This document shows, piece by piece, positions 10,811 to 62,707 of a DNA stretch of 64,000 nt (its first letter is position 1; every line of letters starts with the position of its first letter). The notes beneath the pieces are model-generated. The model ran no database searches and was not told the DNA's origin. It worked only from the letters and a program-made list of their open reading frames with translations. The translations under genes and the position numbers were made by a program. The stretch comes from a virus: positions 1-64,000 of the IMG/VR virus record IMGVR_UViG_3300023196_003249; one strand, given 5' to 3'.

Positions 10811-11216
10811 CCTTTTGTGTTTTTTCGTATTTTATATTTATATCGTTAGCATATAATAAATCACTAACTTCCTTTATCGGCATACCAAAATGAAATACTA
10901 ATCTTTCATCTGGATAATCTTCTAATCCTTCAATATTTTGCCAAGCCAATGGCATTACTTTATCCATTGCATCCCACATTGAAAACTGTTCATTATGTTG
11001 TGCCAATGTTAATCGTATTCCAGTGCTAATATCACCAACTTGCTTTATAAGTTTTTTATACGGTGGGTGTGGATTACCCCCTGCTGGGTATGTATCCCAT
11101 TCCTCACCATCAATATCCTCAGTTGTATCAGAAAATATAAATTGATAGGTGTAATTACCTTTATAGTCTTGTGACCTATCATGTATATAAATTAGAAATA
11201 ACTTACTCATTACCAA
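10803..11216 (-). CDS. hypothetical protein
   Basis: ORF with 8-nt and 14-nt overlaps to its neighbours. Confidence 0.55.
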   Translation of the reverse strand: MVMSKLFLIYIHDRSQDYKGNYTYQFIFSDTTEDIDGEEWDTYPAGGNPHPPYKKLIKQVGDISTGIRLTLAQHNEQFSMWDAMDKVMPLAWQNIEGLEDYPDERLVFHFGMPIKEVSDLLYANDINIKYEKTQKDG

Positions 11217-12279
11217 GCTCTGTTATTGTAGGTTCAGATTCACTAAATCCTAATAATTCTAAATTCTGAAGAGGGTGACCATAAAAATCAACATCAACCG
11301 CATATCTTTTACCATCTACTATATCAGAAACAAATTGATAAACCCAAGGTTCATTATAATCTTCTGGCTTTTGAACTATCTCATTACTATTACTAAATAA
11401 AACTTCTTTAGCCTCTCCATTAACTCTAAACTTAATAACTACTTCTTCTTTTTCATCTTGACCACTAAATCTAGTGCTATCAATATACTCAAGTTCTTTA
11501 CCCTCAGCTTTAGGCTCTGGGTCTGGAATACCCTCTGGAACTATAGTCCAAGGTTTACTTCTCCTGCTAGGTTTAACCGCTGGTTTTGTAGTTGGTTTTG
11601 TAATTGGTTCAGCTGGTGAACTATCTAATCTTAAACTTTCTCTTACCATATCTTTAATATTTGAAGCAAAGATACGACTTTTATTTTGATTTTCCAAGTT
11701 TAAATACTTATTTTCTTCCATACCACCATCTTCAACACCTAAAGAAGGGTCCTCAAATACCGTCTTACCTAGATAATTAGGGTTATGACCCTCTTCCATA
11801 AATTCTTCTTCATCAGCAGGAACTGGAACTCCACCATCCATATTATCATTGCTACTATCAATAGCTTCTTCACCAGCCATATCACCAGCCATATCACCAG
11901 CACCTTCACCACCACCATTAGTACTTGATGATTTAACTTTATTAATAATATCGGTTTGGTCTTCTTGGTCCATAGAACCAGAATTAGTTGCGGATAAAAC
12001 AGAGTTTATTGCAAACTTCTCTAAATCATAATCAGGTTCACCTACAGTTTCAGTATATTTCCTAAGACTTTGACCTAATTTTCCAGATAATTGTTGTATG
12101 TATTTTTCAGGAGATTCTTCCTCACTAGCTTCTACACCAGCATCGAATGGCTCATCATCAAAAGGTTTATCACCACCCATATCTTCACCACTCATATCTT
12201 CACCACCAAATGGGTCATCTGACATCTCTGGTTCTGGGAACGGCTCTTCTTGAACCTCAGAACCCATCTCTGGAGCCAA
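11203..12279 (-). CDS. acidic Pro/Glu-rich protein; probable downstream part of a -1 fusion with 12327..13076
   Basis: The annotated start is TTG and the first ATG is at 12267. The frame stays open upstream to 12342, inside an A10 run. Confidence 0.55.
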   Translation of the reverse strand: MAPEMGSEVQEEPFPEPEMSDDPFGGEDMSGEDMGGDKPFDDEPFDAGVEASEEESPEKYIQQLSGKLGQSLRKYTETVGEPDYDLEKFAINSVLSATNSGSMDQEDQTDIINKVKSSSTNGGGEGAGDMAGDMAGEEAIDSSNDNMDGGVPVPADEEEFMEEGHNPNYLGKTVFEDPSLGVEDGGMEENKYLNLENQNKSRIFASNIKDMVRESLRLDSSPAEPITKPTTKPAVKPSRRSKPWTIVPEGIPDPEPKAEGKELEYIDSTRFSGQDEKEEVVIKFRVNGEAKEVLFSNSNEIVQKPEDYNEPWVYQFVSDIVDGKRYAVDVDFYGHPLQNLELLGFSESEPTITELGNE

Positions 12280-12326
12280 TGGTTCAGGAGATGGGTTATC
12301 TAATTTAAGTTTAAACTTGGTTTCAG

Positions 12327-13076
12327 TTATTTCTTTTTTTTTTCAGCGCTATGAACTCCTTTATCTATATTACCAAGGGCAGTACTAATACTTAACTTGT
12401 TTTCAATAGGAGTTTGCTTAACTTCAGTAAGTTTTCTAACCTCAAGAATCATTCTATCGATAGCTTTCTCAGTTTCAGTTAATTCAACATCATTTTCTTC
12501 TAATGTTTCTTCACCTTCAACAACATCTTCTTCTTCAACAACAGGTGGAGTATCCACATCCGGGTTACCAGTTTCACCAGTGTCAGTAATGATTTCCTCT
12601 TCATGACCTTCATTTTTACCTGGAGTTTTAACAGTACCCATTAATTTGTCTGGTTGACTTGGTTTGATAGGGTCACTATAAGACTCAAAAGATTCAGTCA
12701 TTAAATTATCATTCTTAAGAATGTTAATCATAGCATTAGCACCTAAAGCTTCATTAAGACTAATGAATTTAAGGTTAAGTTGTTTAGCAGCTTTAGCGTA
12801 ACTTTCGAATACAACTTCAGCTTTATTTTGTAGCCCACCAATATAGTTAAAATCTTCAGCAACTAAGTTTTCTTTTTTGCTTGAAATTTTAATAAAATAT
12901 TTATGATTTTCTCTAACGATACCGTAAACATTTCCGTCAGGTCCTAATTTAGTTAACTCAACTACTGAACGTTTTACGTTTTCATTGATAGGTGTGATAC
13001 CCATCAAACTTTTCATTCTATTTACTTGAGAATTACCTTTTAAACCAGTTGGTTTTACATTATTCGATTTTTCCAT
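12327..13076 (-). CDS. hypothetical protein (upstream partner of candidate -1 fusion)
   Basis: 249-aa ORF ending HSAEKKKK-stop, two codons after the slippery heptamer. Confidence 0.6.
   Translation of the reverse strand: MEKSNNVKPTGLKGNSQVNRMKSLMGITPINENVKRSVVELTKLGPDGNVYGIVRENHKYFIKISSKKENLVAEDFNYIGGLQNKAEVVFESYAKAAKQLNLKFISLNEALGANAMINILKNDNLMTESFESYSDPIKPSQPDKLMGTVKTPGKNEGHEEEIITDTGETGNPDVDTPPVVEEEDVVEGEETLEENDVELTETEKAIDRMILEVRKLTEVKQTPIENKLSISTALGNIDKGVHSAEKKKK
12333..12343 (-). promoter_or_regulatory. candidate -1 recoding site: A10 run containing in-frame A_AAA_AAG
   Basis: Minus strand reads GCT GAA AAA AAA AAG AAA TAA. The -1 frame is open from the run into ORF 11203..12279. Confidence 0.45.
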
Positions 13077-16045: not shown

Positions 16046-18496
16046 ATGAAATGCGACATTGGTCCAAAGGTTAACGAAATAGTACAAAATGCAATAAACG
16101 AGGCACACTCTTATGATGATACCGAGTTATTGCCAGAACATATATTATTGGCTTTAATTTTAGATGATACTAATGAAGCTATTGAGGCATTACGTAAAAG
16201 ACATGTTGATGTTGATAAAATGTTTGAAACTTTATCGTTGTTTTTGAAAAGTAACACATATAGAAAACGTAACGCTTATTCAGTTTCAGATTTAAAACCT
16301 AGCGTTGGTGCAACATTCATCATCAATCAAATGGACCACGAATGTGATAGGTTAGGTGATAAGATTGTAGAACCTAATCATTTAATGTTAGGGATATTAA
16401 AAGGTAAATCACAAGCACAGAGATTATTAATGAAAAATAATATAAATTATATAACTTTTAAAAAGGAAATTATGGGAGAATATGAAAACGATGATATGGA
16501 AGAACAAAGTCCAATCAGACCTAGGAAAACTAGAAACGTTCAAGAACAAACAAGTAAAACACCAGGGTTAGATAAATTCTGCGTAGATATTTCAAAAGCC
16601 GCAGCCGATGGTAAATTAGACCCAGTTGTTGGTCGTGAAAAAGAAGTTCGTAGAGTTACTACGATACTAGCACGAAGAAAAAAGAACAACCCAGTACTTA
16701 TTGGAGAACCAGGAGTTGGTAAAACTGCAATAGTAGAAGGGTTAGCATCACTTATACACAGTGGTGATGCACCTCAACCACTTTTAAATAAAAGAATCTT
16801 CTCATTAGATTTAGCATCAGCAGTTGCTGGAACTAAATATAGAGGTCAGTTCGAGGAAAGAATGAAACACATTTTAACTGAATTAAAAGCGAATAAAGAT
16901 ATTATCTTATTCATTGATGAATTACATACAATCGTTGGTGCTGGTAACGCATCCGGTTCATTGGATGCATCTAACATCTTCAAACCTGCTTTAGGTAGAG
17001 GTGAAATACAAGTTATTGGTGCAACTACTCTAGATGAGTTTAGAGAAAATATAGAAAAAGATGGTGCTTTAAATAGAAGATTTCAACAAGTATTGGTGGA
17101 AGAACCAACATTTGAAGAAACAGTTGAAATCCTAGAGAACATTAAAGGAAATTATGAAAACCATCACAATGTTATTTATAGTTCTGATATTATAGCTGAA
17201 ATTACTAAGTTAGCTGACAGATATATTCCAGAAAGAGCCATGCCAGATAAAGCCATCGATGTTTTAGATGAGGTTGGTGCAGCTACAAAAATAGATATTA
17301 AAGCGCCAGATGATATTGTAGAACTTAAAGGTGAACTTGCTAAAAGTAGAGAAGAAAAGATGCAAATCGTTGCTGAACAACGTTACGAAGAAGCGGCCAC
17401 ATATTTGAAGAAAGAAGAAGAAATCATGGCTGAAATCGGTAAATGGGAAGATGGTATTAAAACTAATATTACCACTATTACTCATGACATGGTAACTAAA
17501 GTAGTGTCAACTACAACAGGAATTCCATTAGATAAACTTTCAACTACTGAAAATAACACACTTAAAAACTTAGATAAAGATATCAAAGCGACTGTTATCG
17601 GTCAAGATGAGGCTGTTGATAAAATCTCTAGAGCAATTAAGCGTAGTAGATTAGGTGTTAAGAGTCAACATAAACCAATTGGTTCATTTATGTTCTTAGG
17701 TTCAACTGGTGTAGGTAAAACTCACCTTGCTAAAGTATTGGCTGAACAAGTATTCGGTGATGCTGAAGCCTTAATTAGAGTTGATATGTCAGAATACATG
17801 GAGAAACATGCAATGTCTAAATTGATTGGAGCACCTCCAGGATACGTAGGATACGGTGAGGGTGGTAAATTAACTGAAGCGGTTCGTAGAAAACCTTATT
17901 CAGTAATATTATTTGATGAGATTGAAAAAGCTCATGATGATGTATTTAACTTATTATTACAAGTGTTAGATGAAGGTCATTTAACAGATTCAAATGGTAT
18001 AAAAGTGAATTTCAAAAACACTATGATTATCATGACATCTAATATTGGTGTGAAAGAATTATCACAATTTGGTGGTGGTATTGGATTTGAAACTGGTAAC
18101 TCAATAGTTAATGAGGAAAGCAGAGCTAAGAGTATAATCAAAAAAGCTCTTAAGAAAAAATTCAAACCAGAATTCTTGAATAGAATTGATGATACTATTA
18201 TCTTTAATGGCTTACAACCAGAACACATTGAAGTTATCATCAAGCATGAGTTAAATGAAGTTAAAAAGCGTATCGCTGAATTAGGTATTGCGTTAACGTT
18301 AACTAAAGATGCAATGACTTTCATAGCAAAAGAAGGTTACCATAAAGAGTATGGTGCAAGACCTCTTAATAGAGCAATACAGAAGTATGTAGAGGACCCT
18401 ATTGCTGATGCCCTTATCAACGGAGATTTAGTTGATGGTGGTAAAATTAAGTTAGGATATAGTGAGAAGAAAGGTGTCACTAGTACCATTTCGTAA
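16046..18496 (+). CDS. clpC: ClpC-type class I AAA+ unfoldase (Clp/Hsp100 family)
   Basis: Two Clp_N repeats ([16 protein letters not shown]). D1 has [15 protein letters not shown] and ILFIDELH. Short UVR-like middle segment [10 protein letters not shown]2 has [12 protein letters not shown] and [14 protein letters not shown] loop at the position of the ClpP-docking tripeptide. Confidence 0.9.
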
Positions 18497-18831
18497 TGGT
18501 AGAACTAATGGAAGAAGAACATGGTAAATGTCATAGTTGCAACGCTACCGCTGAAGGTCAGTGTGAGCGTTGCTACCAAGGCGTTTGTATCGATTGTATA
18601 GTTCCATTCACATATATGAATCAAATTGATTATACCGTATGTAATGATTGTAATGATGATTATGAATATATGCGTGGAGAGTTATTAGAAAAAGAGCAAG
18701 CTGAAAATATTAAAATGAATAGATTTATTGAAAAATATGGTAGCATCGAAAAAGGTATGGCGAGGTATTATAAACAAAAAAAAATAATTAGTTCTATTAA
18801 CAAATATGTGGATAATGATATAAAACCCTAA
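18496..18831 (+). CDS. Cys-rich zinc-finger protein, translationally coupled to clpC
   Basis: TAATG stop/start overlap. Four CxxC pairs (CHSC, CERC, CIDC, CNDC) followed by a charged helix. Confidence 0.6.
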   Translation: MVELMEEEHGKCHSCNATAEGQCERCYQGVCIDCIVPFTYMNQIDYTVCNDCNDDYEYMRGELLEKEQAENIKMNRFIEKYGSIEKGMARYYKQKKIISSINKYVDNDIKP

Positions 18832-21938: not shown

Positions 21939-22121
21939 ATGAAAATTTATACACATTATAATATAGAAACTGGTGTAACTGAATATGTGGATGTACCACA
22001 AAATAGGGTAGATGCGGTTAATTATTGGATGGAAAATGTTAAATCGGACAACTTACCTTTAGATAAGGTAATAGAAACATTTAATAAATGGTACGCAAGT
22101 GTTATGGGATTAAAGTCCTAG
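21939..22121 (+). CDS. hypothetical protein
   Basis: Start set to the ATG at 21939, because the TAgaTTTG box at 21918-21925 lies inside the TTG-started track ORF. Confidence 0.4.
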   Translation: MKIYTHYNIETGVTEYVDVPQNRVDAVNYWMENVKSDNLPLDKVIETFNKWYASVMGLKS

Positions 22122-22523
22122 ATACTCGTGACTAAAACATACTCGCTTACTATCAAAGTAATGATTCTTAAAGATATTGTCAATGGCAATATCTTTTCTT
22201 AGTCTACGATTCTTTGTAGTTGGCTTCCATAACTCTGAATGCTCTCTATGAAAACCCATTCTAGGATGTGCAGTTCTAGAATAATACCTATACCCATCAT
22301 CTACGTGCATTTGCGCTATCATATCTGAAAATGCAACACCTATACCCATTCCCTGGAAATCGGGCAGTACAACCGTCCTATGACCCCTCCACGCATTCTT
22401 TACTAATCCATTAGGCATAGCAATACTAGCCCCAAAACAAACTACTCGGTCATCCCATACACCAACCCAACATCTAGAACCTCTAGATATCTTGCCACTT
22501 AAATAGTGATGACTTTTAAACAT
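22110..22523 (-). CDS. GNAT-family N-acetyltransferase domain protein
   Basis: VVLPDFQGMGIGVAFSD is the acetyl-CoA-binding motif Q/RxxGxG/A. The frame is open 24 codons upstream of its ATG. Confidence 0.65.
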   Translation of the reverse strand: MFKSHHYLSGKISRGSRCWVGVWDDRVVCFGASIAMPNGLVKNAWRGHRTVVLPDFQGMGIGVAFSDMIAQMHVDDGYRYYSRTAHPRMGFHREHSELWKPTTKNRRLRKDIAIDNIFKNHYFDSKRVCFSHEYLGL

Positions 22524-23185
22524 TGACCAGATACTGTAGTTTGCTCGATATATTTCGAGATTGATATCTGGTCGTTTGTAAAATCCCCATCATAGACTTC
22601 ACCGTTATTGGTATTTACCACCCAATCAGGCTCAAGCCAATCCAAAACATCCTCATGACAAGTGGAAATTACAACATTCTTAATGTTATTCCTTTTTATA
22701 TACTTGGATAACGCCATTGAAGACGCTTTAGCGACATTCCTATCCACTACTGAACTAAATTCATCTACTACCGCCCCAGAATAAATAGAACGACTTAAAT
22801 CGGCTCTAAATCGTTCTCCATTGGATAATACATCATAAGACTTATACCAACTAGGTATAGAATTCAATCCAACGGCAGATAATTTATTAATTCCATCGTC
22901 AGGACTATCGAAATGTGATATGATTGATTTGTTATTATCCCAAACTTGGACACTTGGACACCCAAATTGTCCAAGCAAGGTAGTTTTACCACTCCCGGAA
23001 GTGCCATATATTACACCTATGTTGTAATCTTTAGGTATTTTGGTGGGTTTTTCCCATGGAAAGAAGGTTGAGGTGCCATTAAATGCACAATCGAATGCTT
23101 TTTCACTAGCTTTGATGTATTCATCGTGAACCACTGTAGAAGTTAGTGGAATGTCACTCTTTTTTAATTGTTCAATTATATTCAT
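22499..23185 (-). CDS. ABC-like P-loop ATPase
   Basis: Walker A GTSGSGKTT, signature-like LSNGERFR and Walker B AVVDEFS. Confidence 0.7.
   Translation of the reverse strand: MNIIEQLKKSDIPLTSTVVHDEYIKASEKAFDCAFNGTSTFFPWEKPTKIPKDYNIGVIYGTSGSGKTTLLGQFGCPSVQVWDNNKSIISHFDSPDDGINKLSAVGLNSIPSWYKSYDVLSNGERFRADLSRSIYSGAVVDEFSSVVDRNVAKASSMALSKYIKRNNIKNVVISTCHEDVLDWLEPDWVVNTNNGEVYDGDFTNDQISISKYIEQTTVSGQCLKVITI
22580..22588 (-). promoter_or_regulatory. possible -1 junction (GGGGATTTT) between the ATPase and GNAT frames
   Basis: The GNAT frame opens at a TGA just upstream of this point. One extra base here would fuse the two ORFs. Confidence 0.3.
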
Positions 23186-23219: not shown

Positions 23220-23245
23220 AAAAAAAGACTAACTTTCGTTAGTCT
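23220..23245 (-). terminator. hairpin AGACTAAC-tttc-GTTAGTCT with T7 on minus strand
   Basis: Immediately after the stop of 23260..23475. Confidence 0.65.
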
Positions 23246-23259
23246 TTATAATTTTATTA

Positions 23260-23475
23260 CTAATATATATCTTCCCATCCATCTACACCACCTGAAACGT
23301 TCCTACTATTTTGTGTACGCTGAATCTCACTATCAATATACTGTTTTATTAGTTTTGAATATATTTTATCATGCGCTTCTGGTCCATATTCATCATACCC
23401 ACTACCGTTATCACCCCTCCTATTAATCTTGACACCATTTGAAAATTCAAAATCATAATGAGGGTCTCCAGCCAT
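23260..23475 (-). CDS. hypothetical protein; frame open upstream to the A10 run of the preceding gene
   Basis: The 24 codons upstream of the ATG (KKKLIRENNGSEIVKIIKVTPRGG) contain no stop and end at 23547. Confidence 0.45.
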   Translation of the reverse strand: MAGDPHYDFEFSNGVKINRRGDNGSGYDEYGPEAHDKIYSKLIKQYIDSEIQRTQNSRNVSGGVDGWEDIY

Positions 23476-23534
23476 ACCACCTCTGGGGGTAACTTTTATA
23501 ATTTTAACAATTTCTGAGCCATTATTTTCTCTAA

Positions 23535-23753
23535 TTAGCTTTTTTTTTTAACGTTAAGTACTCTTCCAGTTTTAACCAATTCAGCCAATTGACTTTCAGT
23601 GACAGTCACCTTTTTAGTTTTTTTAACCGCTGGTTTCTTTGTTAATTCACCCGCTTCTACTCTTTCTGCGATAGTTTTTTCAACTATGCTATGTATTAAG
23701 TCAACTAACTTCCCTTCAGCAATTGTAACTTTTTTGATTTTTTTATCTGCCAT
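23535..23753 (-). CDS. small basic protein with two KK.KKVT(I/V).E..L..L repeats
   Basis: Internal duplication KKIKKVTIAEGKLVDLI / KKTKKVTVTESQLAELV. Confidence 0.5.
   Translation of the reverse strand: MADKKIKKVTIAEGKLVDLIHSIVEKTIAERVEAGELTKKPAVKKTKKVTVTESQLAELVKTGRVLNVKKKS
23540..23549 (-). promoter_or_regulatory. candidate -1 recoding site: A10 run containing in-frame A_AAA_AAA
   Basis: Minus strand reads GTT AAA AAA AAA AGC TAA. The -1 frame runs into ORF 23260..23475. Confidence 0.4.
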
Positions 23754-23783
23754 TTTATTGTTATTTAAGAATATATTTTTATT

Positions 23784-23798
23784 TATATTAATAAATAT
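23784..23798 (-). promoter_or_regulatory. late-like promoter motif ATATTTATTAATATA
   Basis: 30 nt upstream of the ATG at 23753. Confidence 0.3.
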
Positions 23799-23825
23799 GT
23801 CAAAATAGAGTAAAAAACTTTAAAA

Positions 23826-24620
23826 TTACCCACCATTACATAATTTATCCGCTCCAGATGAAGCAGCGTAAGCGTCTTTTCCTTTACAATTATCAAAATG
23901 CCATCGCTTACCATTACCCTTATCAACCATTTTATTACAATGAGGGCACTCAGTTTTTTCCATCTTAACTCCTTTATTCCAACTTGGTGGTAAATCAGAT
24001 TTACCTTTATTCCAAGGTGTACAACCTTTACTATGGTGTTCTTGATTTTTAAATCGTTCTTTTAACGTGTTAGATATATCTTTTTTTTGTTCCTCTGACA
24101 TAGGGCCTGTCGATAAACCTTTATTCCAAGCTTCTTGTACGCCTACCTTACCTTTATTCCAAGGCTCAACATTTTTTAAGTGGTGTTCTTGATTCTTATA
24201 TAGTTCCTTTAAAGTCTTTGATATTTGTTTCTTCTGTTTATCGGTAGCAATATAAGGGGCGGTATATCTAGATATTATTTCACCACTTACATATTTCTCT
24301 TTTAAAGTATTGGAAATTTTAACCTTTGATTCATCTGATAAAAGACCTGAAGATTGTCCACCAGTTTTTAAATTATAATTGGACCTATCTTTAACCCATT
24401 CTTCATTAACCAACCCCTTCTCAACTTCTAGTAGTTCGTCAAATGAATCATGATAACTTAATATTTCTCTTGTGAAATTTTCTTTACCATATTTCTTAAT
24501 CGCCCTCTTTAAAGCAACCCCACTACCAAGATACCCATCATCTATATTATTAGTGTGGTGGATACCAATGTAAGTTTTATTGTTAATTGTGTTTGTTGTT
24601 TTATATACAAAATATGTCAT
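23826..24620 (-). mobile_element. free-standing GIY-YIG homing endonuclease gene (Seg/I-TevI-like) with NUMOD3-like repeats and C-terminal zinc finger
   Basis: YFVYKTTN..NKTYIGIH and YLGSGVALKRAIKKYGKENF. Repeats ISNTLKE..KNQEHH.K...PWNKGK occur three times. CPHCNK..RWHFDNC. The last 15 aa duplicate the tail of the neighbouring gene. Confidence 0.85.
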
Positions 24621-24711: not shown

Positions 24712-25242
24712 CTAACCGTTACACAGTCTGTCAGCTCCTGAACTTGCGGCATACGCAAACGGTTTTATTTTACAAGTGAATCCCATCGCTTTAATGTACC
24801 CAACACTTTGTTCTAAAGCAACGTTAGAACCCGCTTTAGGGTCTGGATTAACATCGGCATGAATTTCAAATTCAATCTCGTATAATTCAAGTAATGGTAA
24901 AATGTTATAACCAACATCAATAGATAATTGTACCTCTTTAAGCATTCTAGCTTGAATCTTCATAGGAGTTCTATCTAAGAATACTCCTGAGATTACTTTA
25001 GCACCTCTACCAATATAAGTCATTTTACCATATACCATACCCATAGGCTCTTTAACCTCACATAAAATTGCAGTTGCAAATTTGTAAGCTTTACCTTTCT
25101 TTTGTGAATCGGTACCAATACAGATTTTTACTTTGTTTCCTTTTTCTTGCTCGATTTCGATTAATTTTTCTAAATAATCGATTAATGGTTCGTTAATCAC
25201 TCCGTGGTCAACCCTCCTCCAAGTCATTTCATTTGCTTTCAT
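24712..25242 (-). CDS. DUF458/YkuK-like (RNase H-fold) protein
   Basis: ICIGTDSQ block, FEIHADVN and the C-terminal IKPFAYAASSGADR tail resemble the YkuK family (recalled from memory, not searched). Confidence 0.55.
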   Translation of the reverse strand: MKANEMTWRRVDHGVINEPLIDYLEKLIEIEQEKGNKVKICIGTDSQKKGKAYKFATAILCEVKEPMGMVYGKMTYIGRGAKVISGVFLDRTPMKIQARMLKEVQLSIDVGYNILPLLELYEIEFEIHADVNPDPKAGSNVALEQSVGYIKAMGFTCKIKPFAYAASSGADRLCNG

Positions 25243-61542: not shown

Positions 61543-61730
61543 TCAAATTCTACTCCACCATAATCTGCCTCTAGAGAAGCATCTCCTAGCGCATCACTTA
61601 ATAAGAAGTCCTCATCTTCTAACTTCTCTAAATAAGAGTATACATCGTCCTCATGTATATCATCGGATACCTCCAACTCTACAACGGTAGACTTATAATA
61701 GGTTTTGGTAACTTGTACTGAAATTTTCAT
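61527..61730 (-). CDS. hypothetical acidic protein
   Basis: ORF. First gene after the long ORF-free region. Confidence 0.45.
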   Translation of the reverse strand: MKISVQVTKTYYKSTVVELEVSDDIHEDDVYSYLEKLEDEDFLLSDALGDASLEADYGGVEFEWEEN

Positions 61731-61756
61731 AATATTGGTTTTAAATTAATAACACG

Positions 61757-61788
61757 GCAAACATATAACTAATATTCCATATAACCTA
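61757..61788 (-). promoter_or_regulatory. TTAGGTTA-N16-TAtgTTTG promoter subclass
   Basis: 32-nt architecture. Confidence 0.45.
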
Positions 61789-61917
61789 ATCTTTTTTAAT
61801 AATCTTTTTTGACTTACTTTTTACCCTATAGAAAACCACGAATTTAATACTAAAATCAAAGTTTTTGAAAATAAATCAAAATATATTTGCAGGGGTCCTT
61901 TTTATTAGTTACCTTTG

Positions 61918-62010
61918 ACTTGTCATAGGGAAACTGCGACAGGGCGGCCAGATACACCAACTGGGGAAGAGTAGACTCCACCCTACGCAATGTTTTCCTC
62001 TTTTTTTTTT
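61918..62010 (+). ncRNA. candidate ~90-nt small RNA containing the conserved 35-nt core, ending in T10
   Basis: TAccTTTG box at 61910-61917, core at 61965-61999, GGAAGA/TTTTCC pairing, T10 at 62001-62010. No ORF. Confidence 0.3.
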
Positions 62011-62025
62011 AAAAGTGTGTCAACG

Positions 62026-62068
62026 CAAAGTTATAACAAATTCTTCACAATACCTAATATATTGTGAA
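62026..62068 (-). promoter_or_regulatory. hairpin-promoter (inverted copy of 47200-47242): TTCACAAT..ATTGTGAA .. TAacTTTG on minus strand
   Basis: Fires leftward, antisense to the candidate sRNA. Confidence 0.5.
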
Positions 62069-62130
62069 CTATTTTTTTTTAATTATTTTCACTTTTTATT
62101 TGGTGGTCTCGATAATTAGCCCTACCTTTG

Positions 62131-62220
62131 TAATACGATTCGGGGTGAACGCACCTCGGACATATCGCTGTGCCCGAAATTTCGAGGCCATACAGTGTAC
62201 ACCCGCTTGTCCTTGTTTTT
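62131..62220 (+). ncRNA. candidate structured RNA downstream of TTTG-N21-TAccTTTG (62098-62130)
   Basis: GC-rich segment with GGGTG/CACCC and CCTCG/CGAGG pairings and a T5 end. No ORF. Confidence 0.2.
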
Positions 62221-62630
62221 AATTAAACAAATTGGGCATCGGGATAAAACTGCCTAATTTTGAAAATAGGGTAGCGTATACGTGTGTCCAAAATTTTGAA
62301 GCACCCAGAAATTCACATGCCTAAATTCACCTGGCACCGTGATAGATGAATAGTACCTGGTAGTAACGAATCGAGCCGCTCGAAGGGTCCTAAAAAATCG
62401 GCCGAAAATTTTAGATTTTTAGTGAATGGGTCGCTCCGAAATAATCTGTGACGGAATTTCCTATGGGTCAAATGTGGGTCAAAGTGGCTTTTTGTGGTAA
62501 AACGTGGGATTTGCCCTATACATCGAAATAACCAAAGCGTGTCGTTCCCTGTGAGAAAAGATACATCAGATACCCTTTAGGACTCATTTTAAGCCTCTTT
62601 AGCACCATTTCAGAGGCTATTATATGTCCA

Positions 62631-62644
62631 TACACAAATGTGTA
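62631..62644 (+). promoter_or_regulatory. ACACAAATGTGT box
   Basis: Copy 9. First of three boxes spaced 62-63 bp apart. Confidence 0.5.
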
Positions 62645-62692
62645 TAGAAAGTGTCTTAGAGGGGGTGTGTGTGGGTTGTTTGTTTATGTCGG

Positions 62693-62706
62693 TACACAAA
62701 AGTGTA
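62693..62706 (+). promoter_or_regulatory. ACACAAAAGTGT variant box
   Basis: Copy 10. Confidence 0.4.
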
Positions 62707-62707
62707 T

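What the first reader, a model, noticed from the sequence alone, without database searches (positions are those of the whole stretch)
23476..23553. Second A10 run (A_AAA_AAA) two codons before a stop, again with the downstream ORF open in -1
The 72-aa basic protein ends GTT AAA AAA AAA AGC TAA (minus strand; A10 is plus-strand T10 at 23540-23549). I translated codon by codon upstream of the ATG of the next ORF (23475). That frame is open for 24 codons (KKKLIRENNGSEIVKIIKVTPRGG) and closes at a TAA at 23550-23548, inside or at the edge of the run. It is the -1 frame relative to the upstream gene. A -1 slip on A AAA AAA (23547-23541) gives ..LNVKKKKLIRENNGSEIVKIIKVTPRGGMAGDPHYDFEF.. The bridging peptide looks like ordinary protein sequence. 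Two independent A10 runs both sit 1-2 codons before a stop, and both are followed by an ORF that opens exactly at the run in the -1 frame. That is unlikely by chance.
Basis: partly seen in the sequence, partly recalled or inferred. Interest (0 to 1): 0.7.

Follow-up and report, generated by a model that had tools for sequence, protein, structure and literature searches.

The report
Conserved poly-A frameshift site in phage gene
A run of ten A's at the end of a small gene of an uncultured marine phage is a genuine, evolutionarily conserved frameshift site that lets one gene make a short protein and a longer one with an extra tail; the trick is already known from bacteria, but this phage gene family is a new example of it.

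Summary
On the minus strand the sequence reads GTT AAA AAA AAA AGC TAA. The -1 frame opens at the run and stays open for 95 codons, up to an intrinsic terminator.

Within the window alone this is not compelling. Three A10 runs are found against 2.95 expected.

Comparison with relatives is decisive. Eight diverged lineages of the same syntenic gene, from at least 14 metagenome contigs of different projects, all show the same layout. Each has an A9-A10 run, a TAA stop one or two codons later, and a 57-130-codon ORF in the -1 frame. It is never in the +1 frame. That ORF usually has no usable ATG and is under purifying selection.

Other lineages carry the same N-domain fused in frame to homologous C-terminal sequence.

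The 12.3-kb A10 site is conserved in the same way.

So this is a real recoding site, not a sequencing error. It yields a 72-aa protein and a 164-aa fusion. The most likely mechanism is RNA-polymerase slippage adding one A, possibly with -1 ribosomal slippage as well. Sequence alone cannot separate these two.

It is a new member of a known kind; the closest analogue is tssM1 of Citrobacter rodentium. Protein function is unknown.

The parts
23775..23803 (-). Promoter-like site upstream of ORF1: TTGACA, a 17-nt spacer, then AAAAAT. It overlaps the motif ATATTTATTAATATAA, which is also found upstream of the homologous gene in relatives.
   Evidence: consensus scan only. The motif was seen by eye.
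23535..23753 (-). ORF1, frame 0. It encodes a 72-aa basic N-domain protein ending VLNVKKKS, with stop TAA at 23537-23535. This is the product of standard decoding.
   Evidence: Homologues appear.
23540..23549 (-). The A10 run (T10 on the + strand), which is the slippage site. It contains the in-phase heptamer A_AAA_AAA at 23547-23541.
   Evidence: It is conserved as A9-A10 in 8 out-of-frame lineages.
23548..23550 (-). TAA that closes the -1 frame at the 5' edge of the run. Any shift into the downstream ORF must therefore happen within the run.
23476..23547 (-). 24 ATG-less codons in the -1 frame (KKKLIRENNGSEIVKIIKVTPRGG) that bridge the run to the downstream ORF. They carry the conserved linker motif L-IR-E-N.
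23260..23475 (-). C-terminal part of the -1 ORF. It is 71 aa if read from ATG 23475, with the stop at 23262-23260. This C-domain is an orphan, with no homologue found.
23224..23247 (-). Intrinsic-terminator-like hairpin (10-bp stem followed by a T run) just after the -1 ORF. There is no terminator between the two ORFs, so they form one transcription unit.
12334..12343 (-). Second A10 recoding site: GCT GAA AAA AAA AAG AAA TAA. It joins ORF 13076-12327 (249 aa) to the -1 ORF that runs to 11203.

Best explanation
The A10 run is a conserved recoding site inside a single small phage gene cassette. The cassette consists of a promoter, a 72-aa N-domain, the A run, a -1-frame C-terminal extension and a terminator.

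Standard decoding stops at TAA 23537-23535 and gives the 72-aa N-domain protein. In a fraction of expression events the reading frame changes by -1 within the run. This gives a 164-aa fusion (...VLNVKKKK-LIRENNGSEIVKIIKVTPRGGMAGDPHYDFEF...).

The most likely route is RNA-polymerase slippage on the T10 template, which makes A11 mRNA that is then translated normally. Ribosomal -1 slippage on A_AAA_AAA may add to it.

Shown here:
- the anatomy of the site;
- its conservation across lineages;
- homology of the -1 peptide to in-frame relatives;
- purifying selection on ATG-less -1 ORFs in relatives.

Inferred, not shown:
- that both isoforms are made and used;
- the ratio between them;
- which machine slips.

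My estimate is about 0.85 that this is a genuine recoding site. The confidence given below is for that claim together with the polymerase being the main route.
For: 1. Eight diverged lineages share the same layout: an A9-A10 run followed by G, TAA 1-2 codons later, and a -1 ORF of 57-130 codons.
 - window: GTT A10 GC TAA
 - L012/16/26/27: ACT A10 GT TAA
 - L017/33: GTT A10 GA TAA
 - L018: GTA AAA AAA AAA GTT TAA
 - L029: GTA AAA AAA AAA GGT TAA
 - L030/31: GTT A9 GGG TAA
 - L063: GTA AAA AAA AAG TCC TAA
 - L064/65: GTT A9 GCT TAA
 These come from JGI, TARA, ENA and NCBI assemblies. All 8 need a -1 shift and none needs +1. Every contig within a lineage has the same out-of-frame run length.
2. 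In L012, L029 and L030 the -1 ORF has no Met at all, or only as its last residue. In L018, L063 and L064 Met appears only far downstream. Independent initiation therefore cannot explain them.
3. The -1 ORFs evolve as proteins. L029 vs L030 gives pN 0.21 and pS 0.47. L017 vs L018 gives pN 0.33 and pS 0.82.
4. In-frame relatives fuse the same N-domain to homologous sequence. L023 in frame 0 reads SLIKEGLP, and L030 in frame -1 reads RVIKEGIP. P0001-P0004 are single ORFs. The linker motif is present in 5 of 8 -1 peptides against a 0.5% background.
5. Three of the four N-domain-only lineages without a long run (L011, L028, L061) break it with AAG; L067 reads AAA AAA GTT TAA. The window otherwise avoids pure-A KKK.
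6. There is a single promoter-like site, and the terminator follows the -1 ORF.
7. No conserved hairpin or SD-like stimulator flanks the run. Only 4 of 109 genes have an SD-like motif. The only shared element is the run itself.
8. Bacterial RNA polymerase slips efficiently in vivo on runs of 9 A or T, which matches the 9-10-bp RNA:DNA hybrid (PMC5009743). An A11 run just before a stop does exactly this in C. rodentium tssM1 (PMC4256274).
9. The 12.3-kb gene shows the same conserved layout. Distant relatives encode it as one 549-630-aa ORF.
Against: - There is no read, transcript or peptide data, so the run length in this particular genome is unverified and the existence of the fusion is inferred.
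- The window's own C-domain has no homologue. Alone, its bridging peptide aligns only weakly (E = 1.3).
- The window's -1 ORF does have an ATG (23475) preceded by AGAGGTGG, so the C-part could also be made on its own.
- L066 keeps an A10 run although it has no extension, and its C-module is a separate gene with its own ATG.
- A run of at least 9 A's follows almost automatically from three Lys codons plus an in-phase heptamer. Run length therefore does not cleanly favour the polymerase over the ribosome.
- L062 differs from L023 only by A12 versus A11. Run-length discrepancies therefore do occur in assemblies.
Confidence: 0.6

Rival explanations
1. The same conserved recoding site, but the shift is made mainly by the ribosome. 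This would be programmed -1 frameshifting on the in-phase heptamer A_AAA_AAA, or ribosome sliding on consecutive AAA Lys codons. The mRNA would keep A10.
For: - An in-phase A_AAA_AAA or A_AAA_AAG heptamer exists in all 8 out-of-frame lineages.
- All lineages need exactly -1.
- L063, and the window's 12.3-kb site, have the classical A_AAA_AAG.
- Ribosomes are known to slide on iterated AAA codons (PMC4363877).
- At the 12.3-kb site many relatives have GGAG 10-14 nt upstream and a conserved hairpin downstream.
Against: - No conserved downstream structure or upstream SD-like element exists at this site. Fold z-scores are unremarkable and show no structure shared between lineages (mostly near zero, none below -1.84), and the 3' sequences are non-homologous between lineages.
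- The genome hardly uses SD motifs, at 4 of 109 genes.
- Most lineages have AAA rather than the more shift-prone AAG in the A site.
- The 3' end of the run falls in three different codon phases.
- Efficient polymerase slippage is expected anyway on a run of 9 or more.
Confidence: 0.25
2. Two ordinary genes. The 71-aa ORF is translated only from its own ATG at 23475, the 24 open codons upstream are chance, and the A run is just a Lys-rich C-terminus.
For: - The ATG at 23475 is preceded by the purine-rich AGAGGTGG.
- Twenty-four open codons have roughly a 15% chance in this composition. This is my own estimate from base composition.
- Eight of 218 junctions show ATG-less leaders.
- In L066 and L067 the downstream module is a separate gene with its own ATG.
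Against: - The bridging peptide carries the family's linker motif, and BLAST extends through the junction.
- Most other out-of-frame lineages have no usable ATG.
- SD motifs are almost unused in this genome.
- There is no terminator or promoter between the ORFs.
Confidence: 0.07
3. Homopolymer miscount in this assembly, or a DNA-level length polymorphism. On this view the true or major genome has A11, so the gene is simply a 164-aa ORF.
For: - Homopolymers of 10 are error-prone.
- L062 and L023 are identical over 934 nt except for A12 versus A11.
- L023-25 have an in-frame A11.
Against: - At least 14 contigs from 8 lineages and several sequencing projects all have the out-of-frame length. The shift needed is always -1.
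- Lineages with in-frame A10 (L001, L008/9/19/20) show that A10 is called consistently.
- The frame difference between the window and L023 lies partly outside the run (GCTAATT versus GCTTAATT).
Confidence: 0.05
4. A decaying gene: a recent frameshift mutation has inactivated the C-terminal part, which is now untranslated.
For: - The closest relative by neighbouring gene (L061) has lost the extension altogether.
- The window's C-domain is an orphan.
Against: - A 95-codon open frame ends exactly at a terminator.
- The same layout is maintained with purifying selection in other lineages.
Confidence: 0.03

Closest known systems
Citrobacter rodentium / Yersinia pseudotuberculosis tssM1 transcriptional frameshifting (Gueguen et al. 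2014, PMC4256274)
   Same: - A poly-A tract lies immediately before the stop codon.
- Added A's in the mRNA give a C-terminally extended protein.
- Both the short and the long form are made from one gene.
   Different: - tssM1 is a bacterial T6SS membrane protein with an A11 run, and the slippage was shown experimentally.
- Here the gene is a small phage gene of unknown function with an A10 run.
- The evidence here is comparative only.
- The extension is a different domain in each lineage.
Thermus thermophilus dnaX (tau/gamma) and Shigella spa13/mxiE transcriptional slippage (reviewed in PMC5009743)
   Same: - Homopolymer run of 9.
- Heterogeneous mRNAs.
- Two protein isoforms at a set ratio.
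- The in-frame A10 relatives (L001, L008) would mimic T. thermophilus dnaX: long form by default, short form after slippage because stops lie close in the other frames.
   Different: - Unrelated proteins.
- In this family the default frame toggles between lineages.
E. coli dnaX and IS3-family -1 programmed ribosomal frameshifting on A_AAA_AAG
   Same: - Lys-Lys slippery heptamer.
- A -1 shift.
- Short and long products.
   Different: Those sites depend on an upstream SD-like element and a downstream hairpin. Neither is found or conserved here.
Conserved poly(A)-tract frameshifts in AT-rich endosymbionts (Buchnera, Blochmannia; cited in PMC5009743; details from my own knowledge of Tamas et al. 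2008 and Wernegreen et al. 2010)
   Same: - AT-rich genome.
- Frameshifts retained over evolutionary time inside A runs of about 10.
- Rescue by polymerase infidelity.
   Different: Those cases are interpreted mainly as rescue of otherwise broken housekeeping genes. Here the run sits at a domain boundary and produces two sensible isoforms.
Phage programmed frameshifts that add C-terminal extensions (lambda G/GT tail assembly chaperone; T7 10A/10B)
   Same: A dsDNA phage gene gives a short product and a C-terminally extended product through a -1 shift near the stop.
   Different: - Those are ribosomal shifts on non-homopolymeric heptamers.
- They occur in structural genes at fixed genomic positions.
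- This gene lies in a variable, non-structural region and matches no PHROG or Pfam family.

Membership tests
Programmed transcriptional slippage at homopolymeric A/T runs | Uninterrupted A or T run of about 9 or more, the length of the RNA:DNA hybrid | tested here: met
   A10 at 23540-23549. The run is 9-10 in all 8 out-of-frame lineages. The threshold is taken from PMC5009743.
Programmed transcriptional slippage at homopolymeric A/T runs | Downstream ORF in another frame, opening at the run, without its own start, conserved in orthologues | tested here: met
   ATG-less -1 ORFs are present in L012, L029 and L030. Purifying selection is shown. In the window itself an ATG exists 24 codons in.
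Programmed transcriptional slippage at homopolymeric A/T runs | mRNA population heterogeneous in run length while the DNA is homogeneous | not testable with these tools
   No reads or transcript data are available. The only hint is L062 (A12) versus L023 (A11), identical elsewhere. The sample type is unknown (one search found nothing).
-1 programmed ribosomal frameshifting (dnaX / IS3 type) | In-phase slippery heptamer X_XXY_YYZ | tested here: met
   A_AAA_AAA at 23547-23541 in phase.
-1 programmed ribosomal frameshifting (dnaX / IS3 type) | Stimulatory element: a downstream hairpin or pseudoknot 5-9 nt away, and/or an SD-like sequence 10-14 nt upstream | tested here: not met
   - Folding of 70 nt downstream and 50 nt upstream in 9 lineages of this gene shows no shared structure. 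The z-score is +0.34 downstream and +0.13 upstream for the window.
- There is no SD-like motif at the right distance.
- SD motifs are rare in this genome.
Phage tail assembly chaperone G/GT-type frameshift | Gene pair located between the major tail protein and the tape measure protein, with chaperone homology | tested here: not met
   - The neighbours are an LRR protein, an RNaseH-like protein, a GIY-YIG endonuclease, an ABC-ATPase-like/acetyltransferase pair and a ClpB-like ATPase.
- There is no PHROG or Pfam match.
Sequencing/assembly homopolymer artefact | Frame disruption unique to one assembly, with relatives in frame at the same run length context | tested here: not met
   The same out-of-frame layout is found in at least 14 contigs of 8 lineages from independent projects.

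The most novel reading that the evidence does not exclude
The A run may be more than a frameshift site. It may be the fixed hinge of a plug-in system.

- A conserved, basic 70-aa N-domain is joined at the run to at least 10 unrelated C-terminal modules.
- The same C-module occurs behind different N-subtypes: L017 versus L018, and L001 versus L002.
- The same module can be fused in frame, fused out of frame, or present as a free-standing gene (L023, L030, L066).
- Because slippage on the run gives access to another frame, a newly captured module is expressed whichever frame it lands in. A +/-1 indel toggles which isoform is the default.

The N-domain could then be a targeting or packaging domain that delivers variable effector domains, comparable in logic to the hypervariable internal proteins of T4-type phages. 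That comparison rests on my own knowledge and was not tested.
Probability: 0.2. Interest if true: 0.75.

Novelty: new member of a known kind. Interest (0 to 1): 0.55.

Why it matters
- Gene callers split this gene, and the 12.3-kb gene, into a short ORF plus an orphan ORF or nothing. In the 50%-identity protein library, about nine of the twelve full-length family representatives are stubs of 68-78 aa. Recognising the site corrects the annotation of a whole clade of uncultured marine T4-like phages of roughly 200 kb.
- It adds a well-supported example of homopolymer-based recoding in dsDNA phages. Known phage frameshifts are mostly ribosomal and lie in structural genes.
- The natural series of in-frame, out-of-frame and N-only variants is a ready-made comparative system. 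It can be used to ask how isoform ratios are set and how modules are exchanged at a slippery hinge.

Tried and rejected
- Near-identity DNA search of the locus against GenBank phages found no match. tblastn of the fusion against phages also found none. TerL is only about 30% identical to T4-like phages, so there is no cultured relative.
- Pfam and PHROG scans of the N-domain, the C-domain, the fusion and the relatives' C-domains gave nothing above threshold.
- An exact DNA pattern allowing A8-A12 found no hits in the viral or metagenome collections. Exact-protein look-ups of both window ORFs found nothing on record. No second assembly of this very genome was found.
- A search for relatives of the window's C-domain found none.
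- A scan of genome contigs for prophage or host copies found none.
- AlphaFold2 on the fusion without an alignment gave pLDDT 38, which is unusable, so no fold search was run.
- Rfam searches of the whole window and of the 61.5-62.8 kb region found nothing.
- A search for RNA stimulators around the run found none conserved.
- I tried to learn whether JGI sample 3300006396 (the A12 variant) is a metatranscriptome and found nothing.
- Alternative genetic code was considered and rejected. The zero frame has further stops after the TAA, and all 8 lineages use TAA.

Full report
**1. What is in the sequence**

On the minus strand, ORF1 (23753-23535) encodes a 72-aa Lys-rich protein. It ends CTT AAC GTT AAA AAA AAA AGC TAA. 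The A10 run is T10 on the + strand at 23540-23549, and it is one of only three runs of 10 in the window.

The -1 frame is closed by TAA at 23550-23548, formed by the T of GTT plus two A's of the run. It is then open for 24 codons (KKKLIRENNGSEIVKIIKVTPRGG) up to the ATG at 23475, and continues through the 71-aa ORF to 23260.

A promoter-like site lies upstream of ORF1. A 10-bp-stem terminator with a T run (23247-23224) lies directly after the -1 ORF, and there is none between the ORFs.

**2. Is it more than chance?**

Within the window alone, only weakly.
- Dinucleotide shuffles give 2.95 +/- 2.4 A10 runs, against 3 observed.
- An alternative frame opening within 6 codons of a stop and running at least 60 codons occurs at 25 of 218 gene-end/frame combinations, because genes are tightly packed.
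- Only 8 of those 218 lack an ATG for at least 14 codons. Two of these eight are the two A10 sites.
- The genome otherwise avoids pure-A Lys triplets. Of 15 KKK windows, only this one is AAA AAA AAA, although AAA makes up 68.5% of Lys codons.

**3. Comparative evidence**

A search with the hypothetical fusion found four proteins. In each, the N-domain (...TESQLAELVKTGRVLNVKKK) continues in one ORF.

Their contigs show conserved synteny. The order is LRR protein, RNaseH-like protein, this gene, a 228+137-aa gene pair, then further on a ClpB-like ATPase and thymidylate synthase. These are therefore orthologous loci of one uncultured phage clade, with contigs up to 197 kb. The clade's TerL is only about 30% identical to T4-like phages.

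Scans of the viral and metagenome collections with an N-domain alignment, together with a profile search, gave about 30 loci. The junction was read codon by codon in each.

*(a) Out of frame: eight lineages*

| Lineage | Junction | -1 ORF |
|---|---|---|
| window | GTT A10 GC TAA | 95 codons, first Met at codon 25 |
| L012/16/26/27 | ACT A10 GT TAA | 72 codons, only Met is the last residue |
| L017/33 | GTT A10 GA TAA | about 60 codons |
| L018 | GTA AAA AAA AAA GTT TAA | about 57 codons |
| L029 | GTA AAA AAA AAA GGT TAA | about 121 codons, no Met |
| L030/31 | GTT A9 GGG TAA | about 130 codons, no Met |
| L063 | GTA AAA AAA AAG TCC TAA | about 90 codons |
| L064/65 | GTT A9 GCT TAA | about 78 codons |

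All eight need a -1 shift and none needs +1. All contigs within a lineage agree on run length. The assemblies come from JGI, TARA, ENA and NCBI.

*(b) In frame with a run*
- L001 has A10.
- L008/9/19/20 have A10.
- L023-25 have A11.
- In each of these, a -1 shift would hit a stop within 1-3 codons.

*(c) In frame without a run*
- L002-7 read AAT AAA AAG GTA.

*(d) N-domain only*
- L011, L028, L061 and L067 have no long run. In L011, L028 and L061 AAG codons interrupt the Lys codons.
- L066 keeps A10 but has no extension.

**4. The -1 sequence is real protein**

- L023 in frame 0 reads SLIKEGLP (AGC TTA ATT AAA GAA GGG). L030 in frame -1 reads RVIKEGIP. The window in frame -1 reads KLIRENNG, P0001/2 read KLVKEGDG, and P0003/4 read KLIPENGD and KVILENGD.
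- The motif [LV]x(1-2)E[GN] directly after the Lys run occurs in 4 of 5 in-frame lineages and in 5 of 8 -1 peptides. The background is 0.5% of 8-mers. The pattern was chosen after seeing the data, but the margin is very large.
- BLAST of the window fusion against P0002 extends through the junction to PHYDFEF/PHYEVDI. The C-part alone is not significant.
- The -1 ORFs are under purifying selection. L029/L030 give pN 0.21 and pS 0.47. L017/L018 give pN 0.33 and pS 0.82.

**5. The 12.3-kb site**

The other A10 run reads GCT GAA AAA AAA AAG AAA TAA in the window. It is conserved as TCA A10 GT(A/G)/GCA TA(A/G) in lineages L034-L050 and as GTA AAA AAA AAA GAC TAG in L051, which comes from a 274-kb contig. 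Each has a long -1 ORF (KKKSITETKFKLKLDNPSPEP...).

More distant relatives (L053-56) encode one ORF of 549-630 aa that matches both halves. The clade therefore uses A-run recoding in at least two genes.

**6. Mechanism**

A sequencing error, a pseudogene, or two independent genes cannot explain points 3-5. What remains is a shift within the run.

Two routes give the same 164-aa protein:
- RNA polymerase adds one A, making A11 mRNA.
- The ribosome slips -1 on A_AAA_AAA.

Arguments for the polymerase:
- The run is the only element shared by all lineages and by both genes.
- No hairpin or SD-like stimulator is conserved, and the genome barely uses SD motifs, at 4 of 109 genes.
- The 3' end of the run falls in three different codon phases.
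- Bacterial RNA polymerase is known to slip efficiently in vivo on runs of 9 A/T, which matches its 9-10-bp hybrid. Insertions of one or more A's are the pattern reported for T. thermophilus dnaX (PMC5009743).
- An A11 run just before a stop works this way in tssM1 (PMC4256274).

Arguments for the ribosome:
- An in-phase heptamer is always present.
- The shift needed is always -1.
- Ribosomes can slide on iterated AAA codons (PMC4363877).
- Three Lys codons plus a heptamer almost force a run of at least 9, so run length is weaker evidence than it first looks.

My estimates are about 0.6 for mainly the polymerase, 0.25 for mainly the ribosome, and 0.15 for the non-recoding rivals taken together.

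By inference, the in-frame A10/A11 lineages would yield the same two isoforms with the default reversed, as in T. thermophilus dnaX. The frame difference between the window and L023 is a single T outside the run (GCTAATT versus GCTTAATT).

**7. What the protein is**

This is unknown.
- No Pfam or PHROG family matches.
- The single-sequence AlphaFold model is unusable.
- The N-domain contains two copies of a K-V-x-[IV]-x-E-x-x-L-x-x-L motif.
- The C-terminal parts fall into 10 mutually unrelated types.
- The same C-type sits behind different N-subtypes: L017/L018 and L001/L002.
- One C-type occurs both fused (L023) and as a separate gene (L066).
- The locus lies in a variable region. In the window, a GIY-YIG endonuclease is inserted next to it.

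**8. Novelty**

The mechanism class is established, with tssM1, T. thermophilus dnaX, Shigella spa13, IS elements and endosymbiont poly(A) frameshifts as examples. I found no description of this phage family or of these sites. This is a new member of a known kind. Its most interesting feature is the modular, frame-toggling hinge.

**9. Limits**

- No reads, RNA or peptides were available.
- No second assembly of this exact genome was found.
- The window's own C-domain is an orphan.
- L062 versus L023 (A12 versus A11, otherwise identical) shows that run length can differ between assemblies. The cause in that case is undetermined.

Noticed in passing
window 22110-23185 (-); overlap 22499-22523: The 228-aa and 137-aa ORFs together cover one PHROG (11143, profile positions 5-209 and 217-350). 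They overlap by 25 nt, and ORF2 is in the -1 frame. A canonical in-phase heptamer T_TTA_AAA (TGT TTA AAA GTC) is conserved as T_TTA_AAG/A in L001, L002, L003, L064 and L065. ORF2 also has a conserved ATG, so either -1 frameshifting or translational coupling is possible.
   Followed up: partly
window 12327-13076 and 11203-12342 (-); run 12334-12343: This second A10 recoding site is conserved in at least 5 lineages, and distant relatives have a single 549-630-aa ORF. A conserved hairpin, CCCATCTCC...GGAGATGGG, lies about 38 nt downstream of the run (z = -2.2 to -3.3). Its 3' arm holds the ATG of 'EMGS'. An SD-like GGAG lies 10-14 nt upstream in many relatives.
   Followed up: partly
window 23826-23870 and 24712-24750 (-): The RNaseH-like protein and the adjacent GIY-YIG endonuclease both end with the peptide AYAASSGAD(K/R)LCNG(G). 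The two copies are encoded with different synonymous codons. This looks like a homing-endonuclease insertion that duplicated and recoded the 3' end of its neighbour. The same peptide precedes the target gene in L011 and L012, and it lies out of frame after the P0004 gene in L002.
   Followed up: partly
window 61730-62707: About 1 kb has no ORF longer than 52 aa. GC rises to 0.41-0.43 here, against about 0.30 in the flanks. The region contains the third T10 run (62001-62010) and a T9 run (62072-62080). There is no Rfam hit and no tRNA, so it may encode an undescribed structured RNA.
   Followed up: partly
L062 (JGI 3300006396, Ga0075493_1536249) vs L023: The two are identical over 934 nt except for A12 versus A11 in the run. 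In L062 this puts the C-terminal ORF in the +1 frame. This could be an assembly error, a true polymorphism or, if the sample is RNA, direct evidence of transcript slippage.
   Followed up: partly
window 23783-23798 (-) and upstream of the homologous gene in L001, L002, L008: The motif ATATTTATTAATATAA is conserved just upstream of the gene start. In the window it overlaps TATAAATA, the T4 late-promoter consensus. That identification is from my own knowledge. It may be a clade-specific promoter.
   Followed up: no
window 18776-18784 (+), gene 18496-18831: This is the only other in-gene A run of 9 or more. The zero frame continues for 15 more codons, and the -1 frame stops immediately (AAA AAA AAA TAA). 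Slippage here would truncate the protein.
   Followed up: no
proteins P0005, P0013, P0018, P0028, P0031: The N-domain motif KVTVTESQLxxL matches 'ITITESQITDLQ' repeats, 6-28 copies, in giant surface or fibre-like proteins. Several of these end in an Lcl_C domain. The meaning is unknown, and it may be only a short-motif resemblance.
   Followed up: partly
whole window: Only 4 of 109 predicted genes have an SD-like motif at -20 to -4, and GC is 33%. Together with the distant TerL hits to Flavobacterium and cyanobacterial T4-like phages, this suggests a host that does not rely on Shine-Dalgarno pairing, for example Bacteroidota.
   Followed up: no
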